This document shows positions 5,153 through 44,374 of a DNA stretch of 64,000 nucleotides, piece by piece. Each line of letters starts with the position of its first letter. The first letter of the stretch is position 1. Source of the stretch: an uncultured Clostridium sp. (lineage in GTDB: Bacteria > Bacillota > Clostridia > TANB77 > CAG-508); assembly GCA_930990555.1 (NCBI GenBank), contig CAKNPW010000001.1:35007-99006 (forward strand). The letters run 5' to 3'. Position numbers and translations under genes: made by a program. The notes under the pieces are model-generated. The model did not search any database and was not told where the DNA came from. It was given only the letters and a program-made list of their open reading frames with translations.

Positions 5153-5196
5153 TAATATTTACAAAATGAACTTTAAGCTCCGTCCCTAAAGTTCAC
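5153..5196. repeat. Family-B palindromic repeat, copy B2 (inverted relative to B1)
   Basis: atttacaaaatgaactttaagctccgtccctaaagttca; contains the TAA stop (5173-5175) of the Mur ligase gene. Confidence 0.7.
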
Positions 5197-6489
5197 CAAT
5201 TCCTGGAAGGTGTTTCCACGTTCTTCGAAATTTTTAAAAAATCCATAGCTTGCTGATGCTGGGGATAATAAGCATATCATATCTTTTTTGGTTACTTCTT
5301 TTGCTTTTTTTACTGCCTCTTCTAAATTATTTACTAAATAACAATGCTTATTATTTCCTTTTTCTTGTAATTCTTTATAAATCCTTTTTCCAGTATCTGG
5401 CATTAATATTAAGTTTTCTAATTTTTTATTTTGTAAAATAAAATCTTCTAAATTGGAATAATCTATTTTTCTATCCATTCCTCCTAGTATTAAAGTGTTT
5501 ACATTTTTTAATGCTTTTACTCCTTCTATTGTGGTTTCTCCTATTGTAGAAATTGAATCATCATAATATTTAACTCCATCTTTTGTAGTTACATATTCTA
5601 GCCTATGTGCCAAGCCTTTAAAATCCTTTAAGGCTGATTTAAATTCTTCATTTGATATTTTATATATATTACTACAAATATAGTACGAAATCGCAATATC
5701 AAAGAAATTATGCTCTCCTACTAAATTGGTTTCGTCCTCTAAAATTTGTATACTATTATTTTCTGTTATTATAGTTCTATTTTTTATATAATCATTAATG
5801 CAGATATTATTTTTTATTTTGCTGTGAATGTATTTCTTGCAAGTTTCTCCATAAATTAATATATCATCATATTTTTGAAATTTATTAATATTAAGTTTTG
5901 CATTAATATAGTTTTCAAATATTTTATAATGATCTAAATGATCTGGATATAAGTTCAAGATTACTGCTATATGTGGTGAATATCGTATAAATTCTAGTTG
6001 ATGACAACTAAGTTCAAACACTATTTTTGTATCTTCATTTATTTCGTTTATTGCATTAAAACAAGGAATTCCAATATTTCCTACTAATACAGTATTGGGA
6101 TAGTATTTTTTTAAGATAGTATAAGTAAGACTAGATGTTGTACTCTTTCCTTTAGTTCCAGTTATTCCTATTATCTGACTAGCTAATATTTTTATAAATT
6201 CTTCGGTTTGTGAGGTCAATTTATTAATATCTACCACAGTTGCATCTGCAACTATTCCTGGGCTTTTAAATATTAAATCATAGTCATTCAACTCTTCTGG
6301 TTTACTTATTTTTTTAGTTCCTTTTATTTCTGGTAGTTCCTTTCGGTCTAAAATTCCTAACTCATTGCATTTTATATTGTTGTTTTGAATAAATTGCAAT
6401 GTAGAAATTCCTTCTTTTCCTAATCCCCAAATTGCTATTTTTTTATTTTCTAAATCTTTTTTAAACATGTTTAATATTGTGCTTTTCAT
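5173..6489 (-). CDS. Mur ligase family protein, MurD-like (candidate MurD2, outside any dcw cluster)
   Basis: 438 aa. N-terminal Rossmann motif IAIWGLGKEGIS resembles MurD VxVxGLGxSG. Mur ligase central-domain P-loop GITGTKGKSTTSSL. Size equals E. coli MurD. Overlaps the upstream gene by 4 nt. Confidence 0.6.
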   Translation of the reverse strand: MKSTILNMFKKDLENKKIAIWGLGKEGISTLQFIQNNNIKCNELGILDRKELPEIKGTKKISKPEELNDYDLIFKSPGIVADATVVDINKLTSQTEEFIKILASQIIGITGTKGKSTTSSLTYTILKKYYPNTVLVGNIGIPCFNAINEINEDTKIVFELSCHQLEFIRYSPHIAVILNLYPDHLDHYKIFENYINAKLNINKFQKYDDILIYGETCKKYIHSKIKNNICINDYIKNRTIITENNSIQILEDETNLVGEHNFFDIAISYYICSNIYKISNEEFKSALKDFKGLAHRLEYVTTKDGVKYYDDSISTIGETTIEGVKALKNVNTLILGGMDRKIDYSNLEDFILQNKKLENLILMPDTGKRIYKELQEKGNNKHCYLVNNLEEAVKKAKEVTKKDMICLLSPASASYGFFKNFEERGNTFQELVNFRDGA

Positions 6490-7859
6490 ATTATCTCACT
6501 CTTCTTTAACATTTCTTTGTAATGTTCTGGTACATTGTTTTCTGGATTATAAAACTTGTTATATTTATTTTCTTGGTTTATATATTCTTTGTACTTATTT
6601 GTAGTTTTATAATATTTATACAATAAAGGTAGTTCTTCATTATTTGCTTCATATTTTTTTATTGTTTCACAAATTGCTATATTTACTTCATCTCTTGAAC
6701 CAACACATTCAAAAGGCTTATTTTTTTGTATTCCTGATAGCATTTCCATTGTAGCTTTTAAATTTTCTTTTTCTAATAAATCTTCTCCAAAAATATTTAT
6801 CATATCTTCTTTTTTCATAAATGGAGATAAAATTATATATACAAATAAACATTTTGGGCAGTTTCCACACCATTTGTTTTCTTTGCTTCCAGCATTACAA
6901 CTTTTGAAAATTTTATAAAATTTAGGTAATTTTGCAAAATGTTTTGCTATTTGATATTCGCTAATTGGTCTTAGTAAACTAAAATATTCTATTTCATCTA
7001 ATATATTTTCTTTTACATACTCATTAAAATCTTGTTCAAATTCATAGCTTTTTGAATATTGATGATTTACTTCTTCTGCATATATTGTAGACTCGTTTGC
7101 ACTTGCTTCATTTGATAATACTATGTATTTTTTCTTATTTAAATATGCAACAATTAATGCTGAAAAAGCTACAATTGATGAAAATGGTGTATGTCCATTT
7201 AAATATCCTTGTTTATTTAGTTCTAACATATTTTTATCTAAAGTTCTTTTTACATAACATCTTTGATTCTCATTATATCCTGCTGTTTTTACTGTTCCTT
7301 CTGTTGCACCTCTTGGATTTATTACATAGCACATATTATTTTTAAAATCATCTTTAATTACATCTAATGTAACTATAGAATCTTTTCCTCCACCGATTGG
7401 AACTAAAGCTCCAGTAAATTCTTCTGCTGTATTATTTGAATTGTCTTTTGTTAATTTGACTGTTCCTGCTATTATATTCATAAATTCATCTATATTTGTT
7501 TTTATTTCATTTTTATAAAAGAATTCGCCAAGTCCATAAAAATATAACTTTTTCCACCAATTAATCTGTTTTTGATTTAAATATATGTTTTTTATAGTTA
7601 CATGTGGCGAGCAAGTTATTTTCCAGTAACTTACAAGTTCTACCATTCCTAAATTGAAAACCATATTTTCTAATAGTTCTTTATTTTCATTTTCACTTAC
7701 AGAATCACTCATTTTAGGAATTGTCCATGTTGGATTAAATTTCGAAAGTCCTACTATTTCAAATTCATAACTTATTTTATATTCATTCTCATTTTCTTCT
7801 ATTTTATACCAGTTATATGAAAATTCTGGATATTTTTCTCTTAATTCAAAAAAATTCAT
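6486..7859 (-). CDS. PP-loop (N-type ATP pyrophosphatase) superfamily protein with QueC-like C-terminal Cys cluster and an N-terminal ~160-aa extension; candidate MurL-like partner
   Basis: 457 aa. PP-loop-like motif LVPIGGGKDSIVTL. C-terminal C-x9-CGNCPKC zinc-ribbon-like motif as in QueC. Translationally coupled to the Mur ligase gene. Confidence 0.45.
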   Translation of the reverse strand: MNFFELREKYPEFSYNWYKIEENENEYKISYEFEIVGLSKFNPTWTIPKMSDSVSENENKELLENMVFNLGMVELVSYWKITCSPHVTIKNIYLNQKQINWWKKLYFYGLGEFFYKNEIKTNIDEFMNIIAGTVKLTKDNSNNTAEEFTGALVPIGGGKDSIVTLDVIKDDFKNNMCYVINPRGATEGTVKTAGYNENQRCYVKRTLDKNMLELNKQGYLNGHTPFSSIVAFSALIVAYLNKKKYIVLSNEASANESTIYAEEVNHQYSKSYEFEQDFNEYVKENILDEIEYFSLLRPISEYQIAKHFAKLPKFYKIFKSCNAGSKENKWCGNCPKCLFVYIILSPFMKKEDMINIFGEDLLEKENLKATMEMLSGIQKNKPFECVGSRDEVNIAICETIKKYEANNEELPLLYKYYKTTNKYKEYINQENKYNKFYNPENNVPEHYKEMLKKSEII

Positions 7860-17487: not shown

Positions 17488-18549
17488 TTACCTTTCTTCT
17501 TCACTTTTAATTTGAGTTTTATAATGTACATATCTTCCATATATATTATTTAGTTGTTCATATTCTTCTTGTGGGGCATTTCTTTTTTGCATTAACTTTA
17601 ATATTTCTTGATAATCAGATATAAAAGATGTTTCTCCACTACCTATTACATATTCATAATTTGAAGCAAATCTTTCACTTTGTATAATATCTAAAATTTC
17701 TGGCATTGTTTTTCCTTCTGTTGGTATTTTTTTAGGAGGAATAGCCGAATTTTTACTTCTAATATATAAGCTTATTCTTTCTGGATCCATACCTTCTAAA
17801 CATTCGGTAACAGCTAAATAAGATTCATCATGTCTATGTAAATCTGTTAATTTAGTATCTCCTTTACCATTATATACAAATATTGCAGTTTCATATCTTT
17901 GATGTATAGCTAGAGCACTTACTAAATCCCCGACAGCCATAACATGTAAATCTAATTGGTAACCATGTTCTTCTAATTCTTTTTCATCTACTCCTATTAA
18001 ACCTTGTTGTAATGAAGGTGCCACTTCTATTAAAATATTATATCCTTTTTCCATTGCATAGTTTCTAATATTAGCAGCATGATCATATGAATCTATTCCT
18101 GTTAAAGCCCCAAAATGCGTTCTGTCTTTTTCTCTAATTTCGTCTGCATCAGATCTATACTTTTTATATAAATCTGGATTTATAACAACATATACTTGAT
18201 TTTGTGGATTTATTAATTCTCTTAAACTAGTTTTTCCCGCACCTGTTTGAGATACTAATACAGCTGCAATCGGATTTTTTGAAGGTTCTTGCCTTGCAGA
18301 AAATGTAATAGTCATAGCTTTAAACAAAGTCAACAAATATTCTTTGTCTGTTTGTCTTGTTTCTAGCATTTGTTTCGCTAACGAATTACTAATATTGTCT
18401 GATATGTAAGGATTCACCCTTCTTTTAGCAAATTTTAATATTTCTTGTGGTGTATCTGGTAATTCATTTATAAAGTCTGGATTTAATTCGTGTAATAATT
18501 CATTTAATGTTTCTTCTGAAATCTCTCTTGTTTCATTATAGTCAATCAT
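17488..18549 (-). CDS. Zeta-toxin-like P-loop kinase (copy 2)
   Basis: 353 aa, Walker A VSQTGAGKTS, shared RHDESY motif with its paralog. Preceded by a translationally coupled small helical protein. Confidence 0.5.
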   Translation of the reverse strand: MIDYNETREISEETLNELLHELNPDFINELPDTPQEILKFAKRRVNPYISDNISNSLAKQMLETRQTDKEYLLTLFKAMTITFSARQEPSKNPIAAVLVSQTGAGKTSLRELINPQNQVYVVINPDLYKKYRSDADEIREKDRTHFGALTGIDSYDHAANIRNYAMEKGYNILIEVAPSLQQGLIGVDEKELEEHGYQLDLHVMAVGDLVSALAIHQRYETAIFVYNGKGDTKLTDLHRHDESYLAVTECLEGMDPERISLYIRSKNSAIPPKKIPTEGKTMPEILDIIQSERFASNYEYVIGSGETSFISDYQEILKLMQKRNAPQEEYEQLNNIYGRYVHYKTQIKSEEER

Positions 18550-18758
18550 ATTATTTCTTTCTTCTTTCCTTTTAATACTCTTTTTATAATATTTGAATTA
18601 CCTTTACAAATTTCAACTTTAATTTTTTGTAATACTTCTATTTTTTGCTTTAGTAATTTATTAGCTTTTTGACTCTTATTTACTGCATACTCATTCATAA
18701 CTGTTGCCAGTTCATTTTCTATAATTTCTATAGCAAGCTCTATATATTCTTCCCTCAT
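18546..18758 (-). CDS. Small helical protein, putative epsilon-like antitoxin (copy 2)
   Basis: 70 aa. Overlaps both neighbours by 4 nt (ATGA). Confidence 0.4.
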   Translation of the reverse strand: MREEYIELAIEIIENELATVMNEYAVNKSQKANKLLKQKIEVLQKIKVEICKGNSNIIKRVLKGKKKEII

Positions 18759-19759
18759 TGAATGCTCCTCCTATAAATTTCCTTAAGTTGCTCAAATTGT
18801 TCCTTTGGTGCCTTTCTAGCTTCCATTTGTTTATATACTAATTCATATCTTTCTTTAAATTCTTTTTTTGTATTGTCATTATCTTCATCTCTAACAACTT
18901 TAAGGGTCTCTATTATATCACAAAATCTCTCAGAAGGAAATACTTGTGTTGGATTATATTCATTTGCCAAATTTCCACGTATATATACATTAATACTACT
19001 TATTCTTTTATCATTCATTATTTCTTCAACGTTTGGTATTAATGCTTCATATGATTCATCATGTCTTCCTACAGATGTTAATTTAGCAGTTTTTAATCCA
19101 TGTATTATTTGTAGCTCATATCTTTCATGTACTGATAATAAGCTATTTAACTTACCAACAGCTAAGATATAAACAGAAATTTTATAATTATTTTTTACAA
19201 GTTCTTCTGCATCAACTCCTAATAATCCTTTGTTTTGGGATGGAGCTGATTCTTTTATAATATTATATTTATTTGCTATTGCATATTCGTATATATTATC
19301 CGCATGGTCATACGCATCTGGTCCAGTTAAAAATGGATATAATACTTGATACTCATTTGCAATATCTTTTGCATCATACCTAAAGTGTTTATATTTATCT
19401 GAATCAACAAAAATATAATTTTCGTCTTCTCTTAAAAGTTTTGCAGTTAAATTGCTTTTTCCACTACCTGTTTGTGCTGCAACTATTTTTATTTGAGGAT
19501 TTTCTACTCTCTTTTTATTATAAAAAGTAATTGCCATAACAAAGAAAAAGGTTCTTAAATATTCTTCATCACTTAATAATTTTTCTTTCATTAATTTTTT
19601 GGTAGGTTCATCTACATTTTTAGAAAATTGAACTTCTTTAATTCTAGTTGCATATTTTAATAAATTTTCTGGTTTATCTGGCAACATTTCTATTATTTGG
19701 TTAGGTATTTGCTTTATTATTTTATCGTATACTTCTTTTAAAATTTCTCTTCTTTCCAT
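18755..19759 (-). CDS. Zeta-toxin-like P-loop kinase (copy 1)
   Basis: 334 aa, Walker A AAQTGSGKSN; paralog of 17488-18549. Confidence 0.5.
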   Translation of the reverse strand: MERREILKEVYDKIIKQIPNQIIEMLPDKPENLLKYATRIKEVQFSKNVDEPTKKLMKEKLLSDEEYLRTFFFVMAITFYNKKRVENPQIKIVAAQTGSGKSNLTAKLLREDENYIFVDSDKYKHFRYDAKDIANEYQVLYPFLTGPDAYDHADNIYEYAIANKYNIIKESAPSQNKGLLGVDAEELVKNNYKISVYILAVGKLNSLLSVHERYELQIIHGLKTAKLTSVGRHDESYEALIPNVEEIMNDKRISSINVYIRGNLANEYNPTQVFPSERFCDIIETLKVVRDEDNDNTKKEFKERYELVYKQMEARKAPKEQFEQLKEIYRRSIQ

Positions 19760-20888: not shown

Positions 20889-23345
20889 TTAAAAACCTAT
20901 CCTTCTTGCTTCATTTTTTGCTGTTAATTTTTCTGCATCTATATCATCTTCTGTTATAATCATTAAATTATCGTCATCATCAATATTTTCTACATTTCTA
21001 GAATGTTCAATTAAAATATCTTGATATATTTGATTTATATATCTTGCATTTCCAAAATCTTCAACTTTTTTTGATGTTTCAATTATACTTTCTACTTTTT
21101 TTAGTGCTTCATTTGTAATTTTTAAGTTGTTTTTCTCTACTAATTGTTTAAAAATATCTATTAATTCTTGACTTGTATAATCATCAAACTTTATCGTATA
21201 TCCTATTCTAGATTTTAATCCAGGATTATATTTGATAAATTTTTCCATCTGCTTTTCATATCCTGCGAATATAACTATTAAATTATCTTTTTGATCTTCT
21301 AATACTTTCAATATTGTTGTCATACAATCACTTGCAAAAGAAGCATTAGAACCACTATCTACAATAGAATATGCTTCATCAATAAATAATACTCCACCAA
21401 AAGCTGATTTCAATACATTATATGTCTTACCTGCTGTTTGTCCAACATATTCTGCAATAAGATCTTTTGCTGATACTTCTACAAGTTTATTTTTCTTAGT
21501 GTAACCTAAATTATACAGGATATCACTAAAAAGCCTTGCCACAGTTGTTTTACCTGTACCTGGATTTCCTGTGAATACCATATGAAGATTAAATTTAGAA
21601 ATATCAATATTTGCTCGTTTATTAAATTTTAATAAACTTACTAAATTATTAATTTGTTTTTTTATTTTGCCAAGACCAATCATTTCATTTAATTCTGATA
21701 AAATTTGAGGTAAATCTCTTGTATTATATAGATTAGGTATATCTTCTAACTCTAAAGTTCTATTCTTATTCTCATCAAATGTACTATTTTCATTTAATAT
21801 TATCTTATTAAATAACACTTTAGCATATTCTGTATTTTTAAGTTCACTACTTCCATAGCTTAATTTTATATAATTATATATCTTCTCTTTTATTTCAGCA
21901 GTTAATTGCTCTGTTAAGCTTAATCTTTCTATAACTATATTATAAACCTCATCTATATCTAATTCATCTATGTTTAATTCTATATTAAATAGATTCTCTG
22001 ATAAAATCGGATGTTTATCTAATATGCCTTTTATTACCTCTTTATTTCCATAAATCATTGTTACTATTCTAGAATTATTTTTTAATATTTTTTCTGCTAG
22101 TAAATTTAAAATAATATTTTGATCTTTATCTGATGCATAAATTATATTTTGAAAATCCATAATCCTTATTATTCCATATTTGTATGTAGTTTTTCCAGTA
22201 CTATAATCAACATACATTTTATTTATTAAATTTTTGTCAGATATTATCTCGTTCATTGAATATTCATAATATTTTGTACTTTCTTTTAAATATACAAAAT
22301 ACCACATATATTCACCAATTAACTCTGAAATATTTGTAGCCATCTCCCTATCTTCTGTATACATTACAATATTAATAGGAACAAAAGGTGTCGCTGTTGT
22401 ATAATTATAATTTAAAACATAATTAAATAATCTTTTTATCTTATTTTTAGTTTCTTTATTACAAGATAACTTTTCCACTTTATTTAAATATATTCTGTTA
22501 AAATACTTCCCTCTATTTGTTATCTTATCTTTATTTCTTCTTGACAAATATCTTTCTAGTTGTTTTATAACATCTACTTTTTTTACTTCAATTAGATATG
22601 TATAATATGCAGCCAATTTATATACATATTCATAACTTTGGTCTGTATTATCATCTATATTTTTTTCGAATTCTTCTATATCAAATGCTAGCTCATTATC
22701 ATAATTTCCTAAATAATATTCATGTATTTTATTTATATAATATGTGCTATTTTCCAAATTAATTATGTTTAATACATTAAATTTAGCTTGTTTAGTTACT
22801 TCATTGTATTCTTTTAATTTGATAAATTCATTTTTTAATAATATTTCAACAAACATTAAAGTTACTGTGTCTATTTTATCAAATTTTATATCTATTGAAT
22901 TATATAAAATTGGAGTTTTACCCTCATTTAAAAATATATTTAACAACTTCTTTGCATCTATTACAACTTTGTCTCTTTTTTGTGCACTTAATATTTCATA
23001 CAAAAAATTTCTTACTAAGTATTTTATACAATATTGTAGCCCACATTTTTCACATTTTAGTTTCTTTTCTCCTATTTTGTCTATAAATACATTTCTTGCA
23101 ATGTTTAAATTTATTCTATAGTTACAATTCATTAGAAATTCCAAATAATTATAATCTGATGGAATACAGCTTTTAATAATTGCATATTTTATTTGATTAT
23201 TATTTGCTTCTGCTTCTGTCTGTTGATACATTTCTACTAAATTGAATTTTAAATACATTAACATGATCTTTAAAGTAGGTTTGTCTATGTTTTTATATAA
23301 CTCAAATTCTTTACTATTTGCCAATTTTTCTAAATATTCGTCCAT
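20889..23345 (-). CDS. AAA+ ATPase of the CbbX/SpoVK/EccA-like clade with a ~570-aa unknown N-terminal domain
   Basis: 818 aa. C-terminal FTGNPGTGKTTVARL Walker A, DEAY Walker B, GNAR motif. N-terminus contains CEKCGLQYC. No TM segments. Confidence 0.7.
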   Translation of the reverse strand: MDEYLEKLANSKEFELYKNIDKPTLKIMLMYLKFNLVEMYQQTEAEANNNQIKYAIIKSCIPSDYNYLEFLMNCNYRINLNIARNVFIDKIGEKKLKCEKCGLQYCIKYLVRNFLYEILSAQKRDKVVIDAKKLLNIFLNEGKTPILYNSIDIKFDKIDTVTLMFVEILLKNEFIKLKEYNEVTKQAKFNVLNIINLENSTYYINKIHEYYLGNYDNELAFDIEEFEKNIDDNTDQSYEYVYKLAAYYTYLIEVKKVDVIKQLERYLSRRNKDKITNRGKYFNRIYLNKVEKLSCNKETKNKIKRLFNYVLNYNYTTATPFVPINIVMYTEDREMATNISELIGEYMWYFVYLKESTKYYEYSMNEIISDKNLINKMYVDYSTGKTTYKYGIIRIMDFQNIIYASDKDQNIILNLLAEKILKNNSRIVTMIYGNKEVIKGILDKHPILSENLFNIELNIDELDIDEVYNIVIERLSLTEQLTAEIKEKIYNYIKLSYGSSELKNTEYAKVLFNKIILNENSTFDENKNRTLELEDIPNLYNTRDLPQILSELNEMIGLGKIKKQINNLVSLLKFNKRANIDISKFNLHMVFTGNPGTGKTTVARLFSDILYNLGYTKKNKLVEVSAKDLIAEYVGQTAGKTYNVLKSAFGGVLFIDEAYSIVDSGSNASFASDCMTTILKVLEDQKDNLIVIFAGYEKQMEKFIKYNPGLKSRIGYTIKFDDYTSQELIDIFKQLVEKNNLKITNEALKKVESIIETSKKVEDFGNARYINQIYQDILIEHSRNVENIDDDDNLMIITEDDIDAEKLTAKNEARRIGF

Positions 23346-23958: not shown

Positions 23959-24393
23959 ATGGCTAATATAGCTAAAAAGATTTCTTTTATTATATTTTCT
24001 TCTGTAATAGTATTTTTTATAACTGGTAATTCTTTTGCTAATAATGACATGCTTCATAAAGCAGCAGAATCTACCAAAAATGGTGTTGGGCATACAGAAA
24101 ATGTTATGCAGGATGCATCAAATGCTGTTCAAAATACTTCAAACTCAATAAAAGATATGTCTAGTAATGTTGTTACAAAAACTCAAGAGCAAACAAAAGA
24201 TTTTGTAAATGGCGTTGGTAACGTTGCTACAGATATGAAAGATGGTGTATATAACGCCACTAGAACTGCTGGGACAGCAACCACTTCAGCTTTTTCTAAT
24301 GGCACAGTTTGGTCTTGGATAATAGTTATAGCTGTTGTATTAGGAATTGCATTTCTTATATGGTATTTAGTTAAAAGAAATCATAATGAATAA
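23959..24393 (+). CDS. Small secreted/tail-anchored protein (signal peptide, polar region, C-terminal TM)
   Basis: RBS GGAGG upstream. N-terminal signal peptide, C-terminal WSWIIVIAVVLGIAFLIWYLVKR. Same architecture as 23506-23799. Confidence 0.55.
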   Translation: MANIAKKISFIIFSSVIVFFITGNSFANNDMLHKAAESTKNGVGHTENVMQDASNAVQNTSNSIKDMSSNVVTKTQEQTKDFVNGVGNVATDMKDGVYNATRTAGTATTSAFSNGTVWSWIIVIAVVLGIAFLIWYLVKRNHNE

Positions 24394-24410
24394 TTTTCAC
24401 ACAAGCGATA

Positions 24411-24450
24411 AGCTGTTACTATTTTGTAACAGCTTAATCTTTACTTTTTA
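24411..24450 (+). terminator. Intrinsic terminator
   Basis: AGCTGTTAC-TATTTT-GTAACAGCT hairpin followed by a T-rich tract. Confidence 0.6.
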
Positions 24451-24560
24451 TATATTCATGTTATAATACAATTATTAATGTTTTTATAAATAGCAATGTA
24501 TTAAATTATCATTTTTATACGTATTATAATCTATATATATTTATTAAGAGGAGTAATTTT

Positions 24561-25016
24561 ATGAGTACAAAATTAATTGCAAAAAATCCTACAGCCAGGC
24601 ATAATTATGAAATTTTAGATACTTACGAAACTGGAATTGTTCTTTCAGGTACAGAAATTAAATCTATAAGATTAGGTAAAGTAAATCTAAAAGATAGCTA
24701 TGCTAGCATTTCCAATGGTGAGTGTTATGTATATAATTTACATATTAGTCCTTATGAGCATGGAAATATATATAATAAAGATCCTTTAAGACCCAAAAAA
24801 TTATTATTGCATAAAAAAGAAATTTTAAAATTATATGGTTTATTAAAACAAAAAGGATATGCTTTAATCCCTTTAAATATTTATTTTAAAGGAAGTTTTG
24901 TAAAATTAGAACTTGGTTTAGGTAAAGGTAAAAAATTATATGATAAAAGAGAAGATTTAAAAAAGAAAGATGCTAAAAAACAAATTATGAAAAATTTACG
25001 CGAAAAAAATTTATAA
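24561..25016 (+). CDS. smpB: SsrA-binding protein
   Basis: 151 aa. The N-terminal region [30 protein letters not shown] and the basic C-terminal tail both match SmpB. Confidence 0.85.
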
Positions 25017-25026
25017 TATTTTTTAA

Positions 25027-25060
25027 AAGACATTACCTAATGGCAATGTCTTTTATTGTT
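25027..25060 (+). terminator. Intrinsic terminator after smpB
   Basis: AAGACATT-ACCTAATGGCA-ATGTCTT hairpin followed by TTTT. Confidence 0.6.
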
Positions 25061-25074
25061 ATTTTTTACTAGAG

Positions 25075-25239
25075 TTATTTGTTGTTTTTGTAACTTACAC
25101 ACATTGTTTCTTTTTCGTTTCCTGTATTTACATTTGTGTTTGGCATAATATTTATAGCCTTTAGTTTACATTCTTGTACTGTTATATCATTGTATTTACA
25201 ACTTCCAACTGAGCAATGAATTTTTTGATTACTTTCCAT
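25075..25239 (-). CDS. DUF1540-like small Cys-rich protein (not in the ORF track)
   Basis: 54 aa, MESNQKIHCSVGSCKYNDITVQECKLKAINI..., RBS GGGAGG upstream. The C-x-V-x-x-C-x-Y-N...C pattern matches DUF1540. Confidence 0.45.
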   Translation of the reverse strand: MESNQKIHCSVGSCKYNDITVQECKLKAINIMPNTNVNTGNEKETMCVSYKNNK

Positions 25240-25368
25240 ATCATTCTACCTCCCTAGTTTTATTATTTACGTTTAAATTCTTTTTATTCTTTTCTATTTT
25301 TTATCCTTGTAACTTCTGCAGATTTTTTTCATATATTATAATAAAAAATTTAAAAGGAGTTTAATTTT

Positions 25369-26049
25369 ATGGATTATGAAATAATGATGAATAATAATTT
25401 AAAAATTGGTATGGAAGCTCCAGATTTTGATGCTGTTTCTACAATGGGAGACATTTCTCTTTCTAATTATAAAGGTAAATGGGTAGTATTTTTCTCACAC
25501 CCAGGCGATTTTACACCTGTGTGTACAACCGAGATAATTGGTTTTGCTAAAGCTGATACATATTTTAAAAAAATCAATACAGAGCTTATTGGAATAAGTG
25601 TTGATGGTTTAAATTCTCATCTTGCTTGGCTTTATGATATTTATTTAAAAACAGGTCTTGTTGTAAATTTTCCTATAATTGCAGATCAAAATGGAGTTAT
25701 CGCCAGAAAATATGGAATGATTTCTAATGATGTAAGTTCTACAGAAACTGTTAGAAATGTATTTATTATTGATGATAAAGGAATTATAAGAAGCATTTTT
25801 GTCTATCCTATGAATATAGGTAGATATATTCCAGAAATATTAAGAACTGTAACAGCATTACAATATGCTGATAAGAATAATTGTATGACACCTGCCAACT
25901 GGGTTCCAGGAAATCCTATGATTGTTCCACCTCCTAAAACATTTAATGCTTTACGTGAAAGGAATGAAAATATTAATAAAAATAAAAATGGTATGTCTTG
26001 GTATTTAAGTTTTAAAGATGTTAATAATACTCCAAAATTGGATAAATAG
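25369..26049 (+). CDS. Peroxiredoxin (AhpC/TSA family, Prx6-like)
   Basis: Peroxidatic cysteine motif GDFTPVCTTE; thioredoxin fold length. Confidence 0.8.
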   Translation: MDYEIMMNNNLKIGMEAPDFDAVSTMGDISLSNYKGKWVVFFSHPGDFTPVCTTEIIGFAKADTYFKKINTELIGISVDGLNSHLAWLYDIYLKTGLVVNFPIIADQNGVIARKYGMISNDVSSTETVRNVFIIDDKGIIRSIFVYPMNIGRYIPEILRTVTALQYADKNNCMTPANWVPGNPMIVPPPKTFNALRERNENINKNKNGMSWYLSFKDVNNTPKLDK

Positions 26050-40752: not shown

Positions 40753-43092
40753 CTATTCACTTGCTTTTTCTAAATCTTGGCTTAAATTATTAATTAAATA
40801 TTTAAGTCCTGTAACTACAATATATGCCAAAATTAGAGCTGATACTAATATAATTATTCCCTGCTCACTTATACCACTTAAATGTAATAAATTTTTAAAT
40901 AAAATTACTGCAAAGAAGAAACCAATTGCGGTAGTTGTACACAAGAATGTACTTATTCTATTAAATGGCCTACAAGCTTCTATTACTGCAAAAATACTTA
41001 CTCCACCAATAATTAAGTACATTAGTGTTTCTGCCTCTTCTATGCCTAAGCCTAAACCTTCTCTAGAGAATGTTAATAAAACAATACTAATAATTATTGT
41101 TAGTGCATATGGTAATGCATTTTTTATTACTGTTCTTAAGAAAGTTCCTTGTAATGGTTTTGAATTTTCTAAGAATGATAAGAAGAATGATGTATAACCT
41201 TCTATTACTAAATCTATTAATGTTATTTGTATTGGTATGAATGGAAATGCTGTATTTGTTACTATATTAAATAATGATAATAACATTGAATATATTGTTT
41301 TAATAAAGAATATTCTAGCAACATTTGTTATGTTGTTTACAACTCTTCTTCCTTCCATTAATACATCTTTAAGCACACTAAAATCTGAATTTAATAATAC
41401 AATTTGTGAAACTTGTCTTGCAACATCTGAAGCTTCTGGTAATGTTATACTACAATCAGCTTGTTTTAATGCAACTACATCATTAACTCCGTCTCCAGTC
41501 ATAGCTACTGAATGACCTTTTTCTTGAAGTGCTTTTACTATTAAACTTTTTTGATGTGGTAAAACCCTAGCAAAAACACTATATTTATCTACTAATTCTG
41601 GAATTTCATCATCTGAACTTATAGTTGATAGATCTATATATGAATCATAAGATTCTAATCCTGCTTTTCTTGCAATACTTGAAACTGTTAATGGATTATC
41701 TCCAGAAATTATTTTTATATCTACAGATTGTGTTTTAAAGAAACCTAACATTTCTTTTGCATTTTTTCTTAACGGATCATCTAATGTAATTGCTGCAACA
41801 ATCTCTAGTTTTGGTAAATTTTCATCACTTACAAGTTCTTTAGAATAACCCACAAATAACATTCTTTTTCCTGCTTTTTGTGCTGATACTATTTCTTCTG
41901 GCATTTCCATATCACTTTTTTCTATTAAACGTTCTGGTGCTCCTAGTACTATAGAGCCCACTTTATCGAAGCTTATTGAACTCCATTTTCTTTCTGAAGA
42001 AAATGCCATTCTATCTGCTACTTCGAATTTATCTTCTCCTTTGTAATAATCTTTAAGAGCCATAAATGTAGCATTGTTATCAGTCATTTCATTTACAAAT
42101 GCTGTCATCATAGTTTGCATATTATGTGGCATACATTTTTCGTTATATATTTTTACTTCATCGACTTTCATTTTACCTTCTGTAATTGTTCCTGTTTTGT
42201 CTAAACATAATGTATCTATATGTGCTAATGTTTCTACACTATATAAATCTTGAACTAATACTCTCTTTTTAGCAAGTTTTATTACACCTGTTGCTAATGA
42301 TATTGTTATAAGAAGCATAAGTCCTTTTGGAAGCATTCCTAACAATGCTGCTGCAGTAGAAACAACTGAATTTGTTATATCTACATTTCTAAAGAAGTAT
42401 GCTTGTACAAATAAAATGATTCCTACTGGAATTATTACAAAACTTGTAAAATTTGTAACTCTTTTCATTGAATTTACAAGTTCTGATTCCGCTCTCTTGT
42501 ATTTTTTAGTTTCACTTGTAATTTGTGCTGCAAAGTTATCTTTTCCTACTTTTTCTACTTTTGAATAACATTTTCCACTAACTACATAACTTCCTGATAG
42601 TAATTTATCCCCTTTTTGTTTTAATATTGTGTCTGATTCCCCTGTAAGTAAAGATTCGTTAACTTCAACTTCTCCATCAATTACTTCCGAATCTGCACAT
42701 ATTTGTTTTCCTGCTTCTAGAATTATTACATCATCTAATACAATTTCATCTATGTTAATTTCTTTTTCTCTTCCATTTCTTACAACTGTAGCTTTTGATA
42801 CTTTTAATACAGATAGTTTTTGTACTAAGTTTCTAGCATGAATTTCTTGTACGATTCCAATTATGATATTTACTATAATAATTAACATATACGCTAAGTT
42901 TGTATATGCCTTTACTGCTATTAATGCTATTGCTATTAATAGATTAAATAAGTTAAATAATGTACATACATTATCTCTAATTATCTCCCAATTGCTTCTG
43001 GTTTTATCGTCTTCTACTTTATTTATTTTTCCTTCTGCTATTCTTTCTTGTATTTGCTCTTCTGTTAAGCCTTTTAATTCTTCCTTGTCCAA
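40753..43092 (-). CDS. P-type cation-transporting ATPase (P2-type, Ca2+/Mg2+-like)
   Basis: DKTGTIT phosphorylation motif, TGES actuator motif, MTGDGVND hinge, about 10 TM segments. Confidence 0.8.
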   Translation of the reverse strand: MDKEELKGLTEEQIQERIAEGKINKVEDDKTRSNWEIIRDNVCTLFNLFNLLIAIALIAVKAYTNLAYMLIIIVNIIIGIVQEIHARNLVQKLSVLKVSKATVVRNGREKEINIDEIVLDDVIILEAGKQICADSEVIDGEVEVNESLLTGESDTILKQKGDKLLSGSYVVSGKCYSKVEKVGKDNFAAQITSETKKYKRAESELVNSMKRVTNFTSFVIIPVGIILFVQAYFFRNVDITNSVVSTAAALLGMLPKGLMLLITISLATGVIKLAKKRVLVQDLYSVETLAHIDTLCLDKTGTITEGKMKVDEVKIYNEKCMPHNMQTMMTAFVNEMTDNNATFMALKDYYKGEDKFEVADRMAFSSERKWSSISFDKVGSIVLGAPERLIEKSDMEMPEEIVSAQKAGKRMLFVGYSKELVSDENLPKLEIVAAITLDDPLRKNAKEMLGFFKTQSVDIKIISGDNPLTVSSIARKAGLESYDSYIDLSTISSDDEIPELVDKYSVFARVLPHQKSLIVKALQEKGHSVAMTGDGVNDVVALKQADCSITLPEASDVARQVSQIVLLNSDFSVLKDVLMEGRRVVNNITNVARIFFIKTIYSMLLSLFNIVTNTAFPFIPIQITLIDLVIEGYTSFFLSFLENSKPLQGTFLRTVIKNALPYALTIIISIVLLTFSREGLGLGIEEAETLMYLIIGGVSIFAVIEACRPFNRISTFLCTTTAIGFFFAVILFKNLLHLSGISEQGIIILVSALILAYIVVTGLKYLINNLSQDLEKASE

Positions 43093-43213
43093 AATTTACA
43101 CTCCTTTTCTTTCGAATTTTTCTGTATTTTATCACACACTTTAATATATTACTATATTATTTGATAAAAAACAAATAGTTTAATAAAAAAGAATTTTTTT
43201 TATTTAATTTGTC

Positions 43214-43249
43214 AAAAAAATAGACACTTTTTTGTGTCTATTTTTTGTT
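43214..43249. terminator. Hairpin terminator on the leader-distal side of the CRISPR array
   Basis: AAATAGACAC-TTTTTT-GTGTCTATTT. Confidence 0.55.
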
Positions 43250-43258
43250 GATAATTTA

Positions 43259-43566
43259 CTTTTTATTCTCTAGCGAGTAATGTAAAACAAAGCTAACAAC
43301 AGCAACAATGTAGTCACAGACGTAGAAGAGTTTCAAACCTCTAATGAGTAATGTAAAACATTTTAAGTCTACTTCTAATAGTGGCATTTAACAAGTTTCA
43401 AACCTCTAACGAGTAATGTAAAACAAATGAAGGTAAAGAAGTACAACAAGGAAATGACGAAGAAACGTTTCAAACCTCTATTGAGTAATGTAAAACAAAT
43501 AGCTTTATTTGTCGGAAAATTTGCAGACTTTAAAGGGGTTCAAGCCTCTAATGAGTAATGTAAAAC
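43259..43566 (-). CRISPR. Orphan CRISPR array: 5 repeats of 30 nt (consensus GTTTCAAACCTCTAATGAGTAATGTAAAAC on the plus strand) and 4 spacers of 41, 35, 42 and 40 nt
   Basis: Repeats at 43259-43288 (degenerate, 23/30), 43330-43359, 43395-43424, 43467-43496 and 43537-43566 (2 mismatches). The rc repeat GTTTTACATTACTCATTAGAGGTTTGAAAC has the classic GTTTT...GAAAC ends. An AT-rich candidate leader lies at 43567-43800. No cas genes in the window. Confidence 0.75.
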
Positions 43567-43816
43567 TATATAAATATATACAATATATAGCATTAAAAAT
43601 AAAAAAAATCAATAAAAAAGTAAAAAAAGATGAAAAAAGTACGTCGACGTCAAAAAGTCAAATCGCTGAAACATGCTATAAATAAAGATTTTTTAAATAT
43701 TTAAAAATAACGTAGATATCGACGTGCTTTTTTATTAAATTATTACTTTTTTACATTCAAAAACGCTATCAAAAAATATTCTTTGATAGCGTATCTATAT
43801 AAAATAAAAGGGGAAT

Positions 43817-44374
43817 TTAACGTATTTCACTTGCTAGTACTGACATTTCATAATCTAGCTTTCTCATTACTTTTGCGGCTTTCAATAACTTTTTAGAAGT
43901 CGCTTTGGTAACATTATTATTTTTATATTTCAACTCATGTTCTAAACTAGCCCAAAAGTCCATAGCCATTGTTCTTATCTGGATTTCAGCTTTTACATAT
44001 ACCTTACCCATATCAGTCTCTACAGGTACTTCTACAATTAAATGTAAACTTGAATATCCACTTTTTTTAGGGGATTGAATATAATCTTTTTCGTTCAATA
44101 TTCGTATTTTGGGATTTTCCATTAATAATTCTCTTACTATATAAACATTTTCCTGAAAAGGGCAAATAATTCTAATTCCTGCAATATCATTTACCTTTTC
44201 TATAAGTTCATTATAGTTTAAATCATATTTTTTCTTCTTCATTTTATTTATAATACTTTTGGGACTTTTTATTCTGTATTTAACATGATCTATAAGATTT
44301 ACTTCCTTGTACTTCACCTCCATATCTTCTATAATTTTTTTGATTTCTTCTATGCTAAGTGAGTATATTGACAT
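43817..44374 (-). CDS. Small alarmone synthetase (RelQ/RelP-type GTP pyrophosphokinase)
   Basis: RelA/SpoT synthetase-domain motifs DIAGIRIICPF, YSSLHLIV, EIQIRTMAMDFWA; 185 aa. Confidence 0.75.
   Translation of the reverse strand: MSIYSLSIEEIKKIIEDMEVKYKEVNLIDHVKYRIKSPKSIINKMKKKKYDLNYNELIEKVNDIAGIRIICPFQENVYIVRELLMENPKIRILNEKDYIQSPKKSGYSSLHLIVEVPVETDMGKVYVKAEIQIRTMAMDFWASLEHELKYKNNNVTKATSKKLLKAAKVMRKLDYEMSVLASEIR

What the first reader, a model, noticed from the sequence alone, without database searches (positions are those of the whole stretch)
43259..43800. Orphan mini-CRISPR array with a degenerate terminal repeat, irregular spacers and no cas genes
The array has five 30-nt repeats. The three central repeats differ only at position 16-17 of CTAATGAG (CTAACGAG, CTATTGAG). 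The leader-proximal repeat (43537-43566) has 2 mismatches and the distal repeat (43259-43288) is highly degenerate. Spacer lengths are 41, 35, 42 and 40 nt, less regular than an active type I/II array. The flanking genes are a P-type ATPase and a RelQ-like synthetase, with no cas genes anywhere in the 64 kb. The AT-rich putative leader carries GC palindromes ACGTCGACGT (43641-43650) and TCGACGT (43722-43728). This could be a decaying array, a trans-serviced array, or a regulatory crRNA-like locus.
Basis: seen in the sequence. Interest (0 to 1): 0.6.

Follow-up and report, generated by a model that had tools for sequence, protein, structure and literature searches.

The report
Distant CRISPR array of type III-D system
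This is a real but ordinary small CRISPR array: in two sister genomes its Cas genes (a type III-D system with a reverse-transcriptase-Cas1) lie about 125-130 kb away, which would put them outside this window.

Summary
There are five 30-nt repeats and four spacers of 40, 42, 35 and 41 nt at 43259-43566. The array lies between a RelQ-like gene and a P-type ATPase gene, and the 64 kb holds no cas gene.

The array is transcribed from the minus strand (repeat GTTTTACATTACTCATTAGAGGTTTGAAAC). It has a leader at 43567-43762, a degenerate last repeat and a terminator hairpin.

It is better called a distant array than an orphan. In two sister genomes the same relQ/ATPase array shares a contig with a complete cas locus about 126-129 kb away. 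That locus carries csm6, cas10d, csx10, cas7, csx19, RT-cas1, cas2 and cas6, and its own mini-arrays have the same repeat and a homologous leader.

Eight alleles of the relQ array carry about 28 different spacers. Only the trailer-end spacers are shared, so the locus acquires spacers in the population. Spacers are 28-48 nt long system-wide. They are antisense to mRNA-like strands (76 of 87) and enriched for ribosome-binding-site plus start-codon regions. Both features are known traits of RT-Cas1/type III systems.

The window's own allele looks quiescent: every repeat differs, and repeat 1 is mutated in the crRNA handle. No protospacers were found. This is a new member of a known kind, of low interest.

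The parts
43817..44374 (-). Upstream neighbour: small alarmone synthetase (RelQ-like, 185 aa). Not part of the CRISPR system.
   Evidence: Pfam RelA_SpoT, E=1.5e-33.
43763..43792 (-). Intrinsic terminator of relQ: 13-bp stem followed by a T-run. It insulates the array from relQ transcription.
   Evidence: Terminator scan found 1 site; shuffles expect 0.1.
43567..43762 (-). CRISPR leader, AT-rich. It holds an imperfect 35-nt inverted repeat, arms 43719-43753 and 43613-43647. It also holds the conserved 60-nt core described in the next part.
   Evidence: Inverted repeat I1. Alignment with the leaders of eight other arrays, six of them cas-adjacent: the block TATTGATTTTTTT..TTTTTAATG.TATA is invariant. 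The last 60 nt are 46-50/60 identical to the cas-locus leaders.
43567..43626 (-). Conserved leader core with an inferred sigma-70-type promoter: -35 TTGATT (43607-43612), a 17-nt spacer, then an extended -10 TGcTATATA (43584-43592).
   Evidence: Coordinates, conservation. The promoter is my inference. The consensus scanner did not call it, because the -10 hexamer ends in A.
43537..43566 (-). Repeat 1 (leader-proximal): GTTTTACATTACTCATTAGAGGCTTGAACC. It carries T23C and A29C, both inside the last 8 nt, which would become the 5' handle of crRNA 1.
43497..43536 (-). Spacer 1 (newest), 40 nt.
   Evidence: No match in phages or IMG/VR.
43467..43496 (-). Repeat 2, carrying T16A, which lies in the predicted loop.
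43425..43466 (-). Spacer 2, 42 nt. Its target-sense strand is 81% purine and has an open reading frame.
   Evidence: No IMG/VR hit.
43395..43424 (-). Repeat 3, carrying A15G, which lies in the predicted loop.
43360..43394 (-). Spacer 3, 35 nt.
   Evidence: No IMG/VR hit.
43330..43359 (-). Repeat 4, identical to the consensus of the cas-adjacent arrays: GTTTTACATTACTCATTAGAGGTTTGAAAC.
43289..43329 (-). Spacer 4 (oldest), 41 nt. It is shared with the sister lineage seen in L001, L014 and L027.
   Evidence: No IMG/VR hit.
43259..43288 (-). Repeat 5, the degenerate terminal repeat: GTTTTACATTACTCGCTAGAGAATAAAAAG. Its 3' third has been lost.
   Evidence: Every array of this system ends in a similarly truncated repeat.
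43215..43246 (-). Trailer hairpin: a perfect 13-bp stem and 6-nt loop flanked by A and T runs. It is the likely terminator of the pre-crRNA.
   Evidence: Inverted repeat I23. Weak Rfam hits align it as a terminator stem. Analogous hairpins follow the other arrays. The termination function is inferred.
40753..43092 (-). Downstream neighbour: P-type cation ATPase (779 aa). Not part of the CRISPR system. In the sister genomes the cas locus lies about 126-129 kb beyond this side.
   Evidence: Pfam E1-E2_ATPase plus Hydrolase. Synteny.

Best explanation
The feature is a bona fide, stand-alone ('distant') CRISPR array. It belongs to a type III-D CRISPR-Cas system whose genes lie elsewhere on the chromosome, predicted about 125-130 kb beyond the ATPase side and so outside the window.

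Proposed mechanism:
1. A promoter in the conserved leader core drives minus-strand transcription through repeat 1 to repeat 5. Transcription stops at the hairpin at 43215-43246.
2. Cas6, encoded in trans, cuts each repeat 8 nt from its 3' end. Each crRNA therefore carries the handle UUUGAAAC, except crRNA 1, which carries CUUGAACC.
3. The crRNAs load into the Cas10d/Csx10/Cas7/Csx19 effector. This recognises complementary transcripts and activates Csm6 through cyclic oligoadenylate.
4. New spacers are inserted at the leader-repeat 1 junction by RT-Cas1/Cas2, at least partly from RNA.

Shown here: the array's anatomy, leader homology, the shared repeat, co-occurrence with the cas locus on one contig in two sister genomes, strain-to-strain spacer turnover with a conserved trailer end, and the antisense bias of the spacers.

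Inferred: the promoter, the Cas6 cleavage site, effector loading, and the presence of the cas locus in the window's own strain.

The window's allele appears quiescent. It has gained no spacer since repeat 1 mutated.
For: 1. Array architecture. There are 4 matches to the repeat against 0 expected by chance, plus a degenerate fifth copy, an AT-rich leader and a trailer hairpin.

2. Same repeat next to cas genes. The identical repeat lies beside cas6 (TIGR01877, 112.6 bits against a 58.65 cutoff) in a same-species MAG whose flanks are 93-97.7% identical to the window.

3. Full cognate locus. It runs csm6 / cas10 / csx10-like / cas7 / csx19 / cas7 / array / RT-cas1 / cas2 / array / cas6. PADLOC scores:
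- Cas10d, 434 bits
- Cas5_IIId, 870 bits
- two Cas7_IIId
- Csx19, labelled CAS-III-D
- Csm6, Cas1 plus RT, Cas2 and Cas6

4. Same-contig linkage in two genomes.
- CABRFR010000001.1 (314 kb): relQ array at about 179.8-180.2 kb, cas locus at 26.7-47.4 kb.
- ERZ28618653 scaffold_45 (198 kb): relQ array at about 23.8-24.2 kb, cas locus at 143.3-165.5 kb.
- OLPR01000002.1 (311 kb) also carries both.

5. Leader homology. The 60 nt upstream of repeat 1 are 46-50/60 identical to the leaders of the cas-adjacent arrays, with an invariant block.

6. Population dynamics. Eight alleles of the relQ/ATPase array carry about 28 distinct spacers. Only trailer-end spacers are shared within sublineages, and the leader-proximal repeats are homogeneous, as expected when repeat 1 is duplicated at each acquisition.

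7. Shared spacer pool. relQ-array spacers and cas-locus spacers from different strains overlap the same protospacers, always in the same orientation (30/32 and 27/28 identities).

8. Functional orientation.
- The target-sense strand is purine-rich in 76 of 87 unique spacers. An earlier count was 53 of 62, p=1e-8.
- The mean purine fraction matches the 0.61 of coding strands in the window.
- 20% of 64 spacers carry a Shine-Dalgarno motif plus ATG in target sense, against 4.3% in the background and 1.6% on the opposite strand.

9. Literature.
- Antisense bias, start/stop-codon bias and roughly 39-nt spacers are reported for RT-Cas1 systems (PMC10828431, PMC6821258).
- About 23% of CRISPRs are more than 20 kb from cas genes. 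[quoted passage not shown]
Against: - The window's own genome beyond 64 kb is not available, so the cas locus in this exact strain is inferred from sister strains. An extra 10 kb to the left holds no cas genes. That is expected if the locus lies about 85 kb further on.
- The window allele is 100% identical in three independent metagenome assemblies. Its four functional repeats all differ from each other. Repeat 1 carries T23C and A29C in the handle region. This argues against recent acquisition in this lineage and could impair crRNA 1.
- No protospacer was found for any spacer. I searched GenBank phages, eight spacer cores against IMG/VR and 440 kb of host sequence.
- The repeat matches no Rfam CRISPR-DR family.
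- Two assemblies (L015, L016) show the cas locus without RT-cas1/cas2. Some lineages may therefore lack adaptation genes, or those assemblies collapsed across repeats.
Confidence: 0.8

Rival explanations
1. The array is a relic (true orphan) in this strain. The window's lineage has lost the type III-D/Cas6/RT-Cas1 locus, and the array is a non-functional remnant drifting by mutation.
For: - All repeats of this allele differ from one another, and repeat 1 has two substitutions in the handle region.
- The allele is frozen: it is 100% identical in three assemblies.
- It is the shortest allele seen, with 4 spacers, a count it shares with L025.
- cas-locus rearrangements do occur in relatives: L015 and L016 lack RT-cas1/cas2.
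- No cas genes are found in the 64 kb or in a further 10 kb.
Against: - Every sister genome in which both loci could be examined has the cas locus.
- The leader core, its putative promoter, the handle of repeats 2-4 and the terminator are all intact.
- The variable positions in repeats 2 and 3 fall in the predicted loop.
- The predicted cas position, about 126-129 kb away, lies outside everything I could inspect.
Confidence: 0.12
2. The array is serviced wholly or partly by another system that shares the repeat, for example a type I-B system elsewhere in the genome. The type III-D linkage would then be secondary.
For: The best PADLOC models for the Cas6, Cas1 and Cas2 of the cognate locus are 'b'-type: Cas6b 190 bits, Cas1b 290 bits, Cas2b 101 bits. 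This shows that the maturation and adaptation modules are related to I-B modules. Type III systems are known to share arrays with type I systems (PMC7145637 introduction, PMC5576922).
Against: - Only type III-D effector genes were seen next to arrays with this repeat, in all eleven cas-locus contexts where genes beyond the arrays could be read.
- The strong antisense-to-mRNA orientation bias of the spacers fits an RNA-targeting type III effector. It is not expected for a DNA-targeting type I system.
Confidence: 0.05
3. The array is a regulatory, self-targeting crRNA locus. Its spacers guide the effector to the host's own transcripts to control gene expression rather than to defend against invaders.
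For: - No spacer matches a known phage.
- System-wide, 20% of spacers are antisense to ribosome-binding-site plus start-codon regions.
- RT-Cas1 systems acquire from host transcripts when over-expressed (PMC6821258).
Against: - No spacer matches anything outside arrays in 440 kb of this species' DNA, including the 64-kb window.
- Spacer content is hypervariable between strains, which is unlike a conserved regulator.
- None of the four window spacers spans a Shine-Dalgarno plus ATG motif (listing).
Confidence: 0.03

Closest known systems
[quoted passage not shown] 2019, PMC6821258)
   Same: - Type III-D effector cassette that includes csx19 and cas6.
- RT-Cas1 fusion plus Cas2 flanked by two short arrays with identical repeats and similar leaders.
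- Acquired spacers show an antisense bias relative to coding sequences.
   Different: - Here there is one Cas2, not two.
- The host is an uncultured low-GC gut Clostridia species.
- There are two or three mini-arrays inside the cas locus, plus an extra array about 126-129 kb away. That extra array is the one in the window.
- Start-codon-proximal enrichment is seen here. It was reported absent in V. vulnificus (PMC10828431).
Fusicatenibacter saccharivorans RT-Cas1-Cas2, the 'Record-seq' adaptation module (as summarised in PMC10828431)
   Same: - Gut Clostridia origin.
- Median spacer of about 39 nt with a spread towards longer spacers.
- AT-rich spacers.
- Preference for regions near start and stop codons.
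- Antisense orientation.
The natural spacers here show the same features: mean 38.1 nt, 76 of 87 antisense, 20% spanning a Shine-Dalgarno motif plus ATG.
   Different: - That review describes the F. saccharivorans protein as a Cas6-RT-Cas1 fusion. Here Cas6 is a separate 244-aa protein and RT-Cas1 is 628 aa.
- I did not compare the two proteins' sequences.
'Distant' CRISPR arrays used in trans (Bernheim et al. 2020, PMC7145637)
   Same: - The array is more than 20 kb from any cas gene.
- Its repeat is compatible with the cas cluster present elsewhere in the genome.
- It is shorter than many cas-adjacent arrays.
That paper reports that about 23% of CRISPRs are distant, and that 75% of those match the in-trans subtype.
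   Different: Nothing essential differs. This array is an instance of that class. Here there is the extra evidence of a homologous leader and population-level spacer turnover at the distant site.
Rfam CRISPR-DR repeat families
   Same: A 30-nt direct repeat ending in ...GAAAC, with a weak internal mini-hairpin.
   Different: No Rfam family matched at gathering threshold. In an E<=10 scan of 43100-43900, no hit fell on the repeats and none was to a CRISPR-DR family. The repeat is therefore not in a curated DR family.

Membership tests
CRISPR array (generic) | At least three near-identical direct repeats of 23-50 nt, separated by unique spacers of similar length. | tested here: met
   Five 30-nt repeats and four unique spacers of 35-42 nt. 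4 matches to the repeat against 0 in shuffles.
CRISPR array (generic) | An AT-rich leader on one side, conserved among arrays of the same system. | tested here: met
   Leader at 43567-43762. Its last 60 nt are 46-50/60 identical to the leaders of cas-adjacent arrays, with an invariant block.
CRISPR array (generic) | Cognate cas genes in the same genome with the same repeat. | tested here: inconclusive
   Met in three sister assemblies where both loci lie on one contig. The window's own genome outside the 64 kb could not be examined. There are no cas genes in the window or 10 kb to its left.
CRISPR array (generic) | Polarised spacer turnover between strains: variable leader end, conserved trailer end. 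| tested here: met
   Eight alleles with about 28 spacers. Trailer spacers D and W are shared within sublineages, and the leader-end repeats are homogeneous.
CRISPR array (generic) | Spacers match mobile genetic elements (protospacers). | tested here: not met
   No significant hit in 50,697 GenBank phage records for the array or for 64 pooled spacers. No exact hit in IMG/VR for 8 spacer cores. This is common for RT-Cas1-linked arrays (PMC5513706).
CRISPR array (generic) | Transcription and Cas6 processing into mature crRNAs. | not testable with these tools
   This needs small-RNA sequencing or Northern blots. Only a putative promoter and a terminator were identified.
Type III-D CRISPR-Cas (the cognate system, outside the window) | Cas10 of the III-D kind, Csx10 (Cas5_IIId), several Cas7 proteins and the signature gene csx19. 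| tested here: met
   PADLOC on locus L018: Cas10d 434 bits, Cas5_IIId 870 bits, Cas7_IIId 435 and 507 bits, Csx19 (CAS-III-D) 82 bits. Pfam Csx19, RAMPs and Cas10 palm2 were also found.
Type III-D CRISPR-Cas (the cognate system, outside the window) | Spacers oriented so that the crRNA is complementary to transcripts. | tested here: met
   76 of 87 unique spacers have a purine-rich, mRNA-like target-sense strand. An earlier count gave p=1e-8 for 53 of 62.
RT-Cas1-associated adaptation | A fused reverse transcriptase-Cas1 with Cas2 next to arrays of the same repeat. | tested here: met
   A 628-aa protein with RVT_1 and Cas1 domains, plus Cas2 (86 or 99 aa as called), lies between mini-arrays in L018-L020, L034, L036-L040. 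It is absent from the L015 and L016 assemblies.
Orphan CRISPR array in the strict sense (no cas in the genome; PMC7145637 definition) | The cognate cas cluster is absent from the whole genome. | not testable with these tools
   Only 64 kb of this genome is available. The sister genomes carry the cas cluster, so 'distant' is the better-supported label.
Rfam CRISPR-DR families | The repeat scores above a family's gathering threshold. | tested here: not met
   0 matches at gathering threshold. No CRISPR-DR hit even at E<=10.

The most novel reading that the evidence does not exclude
The arrays of this species, including the relQ-side array, may be a natural record of RT-Cas1 sampling of mRNA 5' ends. 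About one spacer in five is antisense to a ribosome-binding site plus start codon. Different strains and different arrays have sampled the same initiation regions independently. None of the sources is in current phage databases.

If these crRNAs target the translation-initiation regions of unknown phage or host transcripts, the distant array could serve as a separately transcribed memory bank. It sits directly downstream of the stringent-response gene relQ, so its expression might differ from that of the cas-adjacent arrays.
Probability: 0.15. Interest if true: 0.45.

Novelty: new member of a known kind. Interest (0 to 1): 0.25.

Why it matters
For genome annotation, the main lesson is about labelling. 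'No cas genes within 64 kb' does not make an array an orphan. Here the repeat, the leader and the population data tie it to a type III-D/RT-Cas1 system about 126-129 kb away in sister genomes.

For CRISPR biology it adds a natural example from an uncultured human-gut Clostridia species. The system spreads its memory over several leader-equipped mini-arrays. One of these is a chromosomally distant array that still turns over spacers in the population.

The natural spacers also show antisense and start-codon-proximal biases. Those biases had been described for RT-Cas1 modules over-expressed in E. coli.

None of this changes current understanding. It is a well-documented but ordinary case.

Tried and rejected
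- Rfam (gathering threshold on the whole window, E<=10 on 43100-43900): no CRISPR-DR family. Only weak hits driven by the trailer hairpin.
- tRNA/tmRNA scan: nothing.
- Tandem Repeats Finder: it does not report the array, because the spacers are unique. This rules out 'part of a longer tandem repeat'.
- Protospacer searches, all negative:
  - BLAST of the array against GenBank phages.
  - BLAST of 64 pooled spacers against GenBank phages.
  - Eight exact-core scans of IMG/VR, four window spacers and four high-complexity spacers from sister alleles.
- Self-targeting: spacers against the window plus all fetched loci (440 kb) gave only chance 14-17-mers.
- Walking off the window ends:
  - The right-end protein is not on record.
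  - The left end plus 10 kb shows only housekeeping genes.
- Linking the window's exact strain to a cas locus through shared samples: the samples of the window-type contigs (ERZ28573913, ERZ24773378, ERZ27234795) did not coincide with any displayed cas-locus contig.
- Organism name: cluster look-up returned no names. The closest named record is the MAG 'Clostridia bacterium HGM13682'.
- Repeat secondary structure: only a weak fold (-3.5 kcal/mol, z=-1.1). It is not informative beyond placing the variable positions 15-16 in a loop.
- The consensus promoter scanner found no convincing promoter in the leader. The promoter I propose rests on conservation and an extended -10 element.
Full report
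**1. The observation**

The region 43259-43566 contains five copies of a 30-nt repeat. Four copies match GTTTCAAACCTCTAATGAGTAATGTAAAAC with 0-2 mismatches, at 43330, 43395, 43467 and 43537. Shuffled sequence gave no matches. The fifth copy, at 43259-43288, keeps only the 22 nt next to spacer 4 and has 7 of 30 mismatches.

The spacers are unique and measure 41, 35, 42 and 40 nt. Tandem Repeats Finder reports no array here, so this is not part of a longer tandem repeat.

The neighbours are a RelA_SpoT-domain small alarmone synthetase (43817-44374, minus) and a P-type ATPase (40753-43092, minus). I scanned 50 ORFs of the window with Pfam. I then scanned the eight ORFs without a Pfam hit with NCBIfam. 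None is a Cas protein. The genes are housekeeping ones such as aminoacyl-tRNA synthetases, DNA polymerase I, Mur enzymes and ABC transporters.

**2. Orientation and anatomy**

Read on the minus strand, the repeat is GTTTTACATTACTCATTAGAGGTTTGAAAC. The elements then run in this order:
- the relQ stop codon;
- an intrinsic terminator (43792-43763);
- an AT-rich leader of about 195 nt (43762-43567);
- repeat 1 and spacer 1 through to repeat 4 and spacer 4;
- a 3'-degenerate repeat 5;
- a perfect 13-bp hairpin flanked by A and T runs (43246-43215, I23).

The variable repeat positions are 15 and 16. They fall in the loop of the only predicted mini-hairpin, CUC-N4-GAG. That fold is weak and not significant.

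Repeat 1 carries T23C and A29C. Both lie inside the last 8 nt, which in Cas6-processed systems becomes the 5' handle of the crRNA. This last point rests on established knowledge of type I/III crRNA biogenesis.

**3. Relatives of the locus**

A scan of one genome per species found the repeat in only one record, the human-gut MAG 'Clostridia bacterium HGM13682'. It occurs there at two places.

- Locus L001 is the syntenic relQ/ATPase intergenic region. Its flanks are 93-97.7% identical to the window. It has the same degenerate terminal repeat and the same oldest spacer, but four different newer spacers.
- Locus L002 is a mini-array immediately downstream of a gene that NCBIfam identifies as Cas6 (TIGR01877, 112.6 bits against a 58.65 cutoff).

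Three metagenome contigs that encode the window's exact RelQ protein carry an intergenic region 100% identical to the window.

**4. The cognate cas system**

I used Cas6 homologues and their contigs, the metagenome scan for the repeat, and homologues of the 730-aa RAMP protein. Together these reveal one conserved locus. Its gene order is:
- csm6 (CARF plus HEPN);
- cas10 (520 aa);
- a 730-aa Csx10-type fusion;
- a 436-aa double Cas7;
- csx19;
- a Cas7 of about 750 aa;
- one or two mini-arrays;
- RT-cas1 (628 aa, RVT_1 plus Cas1);
- cas2;
- another mini-array;
- cas6.

PADLOC assigns Cas10d (434 bits), Cas5_IIId (870 bits), Cas7_IIId (435 and 507 bits), Csx19 (CAS-III-D), Csm6, Cas1 plus RT, Cas2 and Cas6. 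This is a type III-D system with an RT-Cas1 adaptation module. The closest characterised analogue is the Vibrio vulnificus YJ016 locus (PMC6821258).

**5. Linkage to the relQ array**

Two sister assemblies carry both loci on one contig.

- NCBI contig CABRFR010000001.1 (314 kb) has the relQ array at about 179.8-180.2 kb (L027). The cas locus is at 26.7-47.4 kb (L034).
- ENA scaffold_45 of ERZ28618653 (198 kb) has the relQ array at about 23.8-24.2 kb (L024). The cas locus is at 143.3-165.5 kb (L036).

In both, the cas locus lies about 126-129 kb away on the ATPase side. A third contig, OLPR01000002.1 (311 kb), also holds both loci.

By synteny, the cas locus of the window's strain would lie about 82-87 kb beyond the window's left edge. 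That explains why the 64 kb holds no cas genes. It also explains why a further 10 kb to the left holds none. I could not verify this directly for the window's own strain.

**6. One system, several leader-equipped mini-arrays**

Every array with this repeat has the same modular build, whether it lies beside cas6, beside RT-cas1, beside the effector genes or at the relQ site:
- an inverted repeat followed by a T-run;
- a conserved leader core;
- 2-12 repeats;
- a terminal repeat whose 3' third is degenerate;
- in most arrays, a hairpin downstream of the terminal repeat.

These features are shown.

The 60 nt upstream of repeat 1 in the window are 46-50/60 identical to the cas-locus leaders. The block TATTGATTTTTTT..TTTTTAATG.TATA is invariant. 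I read this block as a promoter: -35 TTGATT, a 17-nt spacer, then an extended -10 TGnTATAnA. In the window it lies at 43612-43584. This is an inference. The consensus scanner did not call it.

**7. The locus is dynamic in the population**

A look-up with the conserved Asp23 protein retrieved seven further strain variants, and all of them carry the array at the same site. With the window this makes eight alleles and about 28 distinct spacers:

| Source | Spacer order (leader to trailer) |
|---|---|
| window | A B C D |
| L001/L027 | E F G H D |
| L024 | I J K L M N |
| L025 | O P Q R |
| L026 | S T U V W |
| L028 | X Q Y M W |
| L029 | Z S [ \ W |
| L030 | I N L ] Q W |

Trailer spacers (D, W) are shared within sublineages, while the leader ends differ. 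The leader-proximal repeats of the larger alleles are identical copies of repeat 1. This is what repeat duplication at each acquisition would produce.

Within the cas locus, L018, L019 and L020 differ only at the leader end of the array next to RT-cas1.

relQ-array spacers and cas-locus spacers from different strains overlap the same protospacers in the same orientation (30/32 and 27/28 identities, no opposite-strand hits). The arrays therefore appear to draw on one spacer pool.

**8. Spacer properties**

Across 90 unique spacers the mean length is 38.1 nt, with a range of 28-48. The 'irregular' lengths in the window are therefore a property of the system and not a sign of decay.

- The strand complementary to the crRNA is purine-rich in 76 of 87 spacers. 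An earlier count gave 53 of 62, p=1e-8.
- Its mean purine fraction of about 0.61-0.63 matches the 0.61 of coding strands in the window.
- 13 of 64 spacers (20%) contain a Shine-Dalgarno motif followed by ATG in the target sense. The figure is 4.3% for random sense-strand windows and 1.6% for the opposite strand.

Antisense orientation, a preference for start/stop-codon regions, AT-richness and a median of about 39 nt are the traits reported for the RT-Cas1 module of another gut Clostridia species, F. saccharivorans. Antisense bias is also reported for V. vulnificus (PMC10828431, PMC6821258). These data independently support minus-strand transcription and an RNA-targeting type III partner.

**9. 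Targets**

No protospacer was found in any of these searches:
- GenBank phages, for the array;
- GenBank phages, for 64 pooled spacers;
- IMG/VR exact cores for eight spacers;
- 440 kb of DNA from this species, including the window.

Unidentifiable sources are typical of RT-linked arrays (PMC5513706). The regulatory or self-targeting reading has no support but is not formally excluded.

**10. State of the window's allele**

The window's four functional repeats are all different:
- repeat 1: T23C plus A29C;
- repeat 2: T16A;
- repeat 3: A15G;
- repeat 4: consensus.

Because each new repeat is a copy of repeat 1, no spacer has been added since repeat 1 acquired its changes. T23C is shared with the L001 lineage, which went on to add spacers with that variant. 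The allele is also identical in three independent assemblies.

The array is thus probably still expressed and usable. The handles of crRNAs 2-4 are intact, and so are the leader core and the terminator. But it is quiescent for adaptation, and crRNA 1 may be impaired. The alternative, that this strain has lost its cas genes, cannot be excluded. I give it about 12%.

**11. Comparison with what is known, and verdict**

[quoted passage not shown] Type III-D systems with RT-Cas1 flanked by short arrays are described (PMC6821258).

This finding is a new member of these known kinds, in an uncultured low-GC gut Clostridia species. The repeat is not in Rfam. Nothing here is mechanistically surprising.

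The modest points of interest are three:
- the multiplicity of leader-equipped mini-arrays;
- the active turnover at a chromosomally distant site;
- natural-population evidence for start-codon-proximal, antisense spacer sampling.

Interest is 0.25.

Noticed in passing
Spacers of all arrays: window 43289-43536 and loci L001-L039: 20% of unique spacers (13 of 64) are antisense to a Shine-Dalgarno motif plus ATG. The background is 4.3%. 76 of 87 are antisense to purine-rich, mRNA-like strands. This matches the start-codon and antisense bias reported for F. saccharivorans RT-Cas1 in E. coli, but here it appears in natural arrays.
   Followed up: partly
Window 43289-43329 (spacer 4); L018 17410-17446; L016 5130-5168 and 5326-5355; L006 8368-8407: Several independent spacers in different strains and arrays are antisense to related, acidic, low-complexity coding sequences (translated roughly ...EQPV(K/E)DNNVV...). 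They share the core ACTACATTGTTG. This suggests one repetitive target gene family that is sampled repeatedly. No source was found.
   Followed up: partly
L015 788-955 and L016 4281-5033, compared with L034 11070-13761 and L039 9645-12336: Some assemblies of the cas locus lack RT-cas1/cas2 between the mini-arrays. Most have them. This is either a real deletion by recombination between arrays or an assembly collapse across the repeats.
   Followed up: partly
Window 43613-43647 / 43719-43753, and the equivalent leader positions in L002, L016, L018: Each leader has an inverted repeat followed by a T-run just upstream of the conserved core. The arm sequence differs between arrays (GYACGTCGA in the window, GCGTTAATC in L002, GTGCATTAATC in L018), but the two arms stay complementary. 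This suggests a conserved hairpin acting as an upstream insulator or terminator, or a paired binding site.
   Followed up: partly
Window 17488-18549 and 18755-19759 (minus strand): Two adjacent paralogous genes encode Zeta-toxin-domain proteins of 353 and 334 aa. No obvious epsilon antitoxin gene was identified.
   Followed up: no
Window 20889-23345 (minus strand): An 818-aa protein has a C-terminal AAA+ module resembling SpoVK, CbbX and EccA. NCBIfam hits are below the curated cutoffs. The 540-aa N-terminal region is unannotated.
   Followed up: no
Window 5173-7859 (minus strand): A MurL-like epimerase (NCBIfam NF041275, 261 bits, below cutoff; Pfam MurL_N and MurL_epimerase_C in sister contigs) lies next to a Mur ligase. 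MurL was described in Xanthomonadales, so this pair is unexpected in a Clostridia genome.
   Followed up: no
L009-L012 10736-10981: In a related species whose Cas6 is 74% identical, cas6 is convergent with a type III-D cassette. Only degenerate remnants of the repeat lie between them, and no RT-cas1/cas2 was seen within the 20 kb fetched.
   Followed up: no
Whole window: Nearly all genes are on the minus strand, and GC skew is negative throughout, apart from one 2-kb block at 24001-26000 where the genes are on the plus strand. The window therefore lies on a single replichore. No tRNA, tmRNA or Rfam family was found in the 64 kb, although smpB is present at 24561-25016.
   Followed up: no
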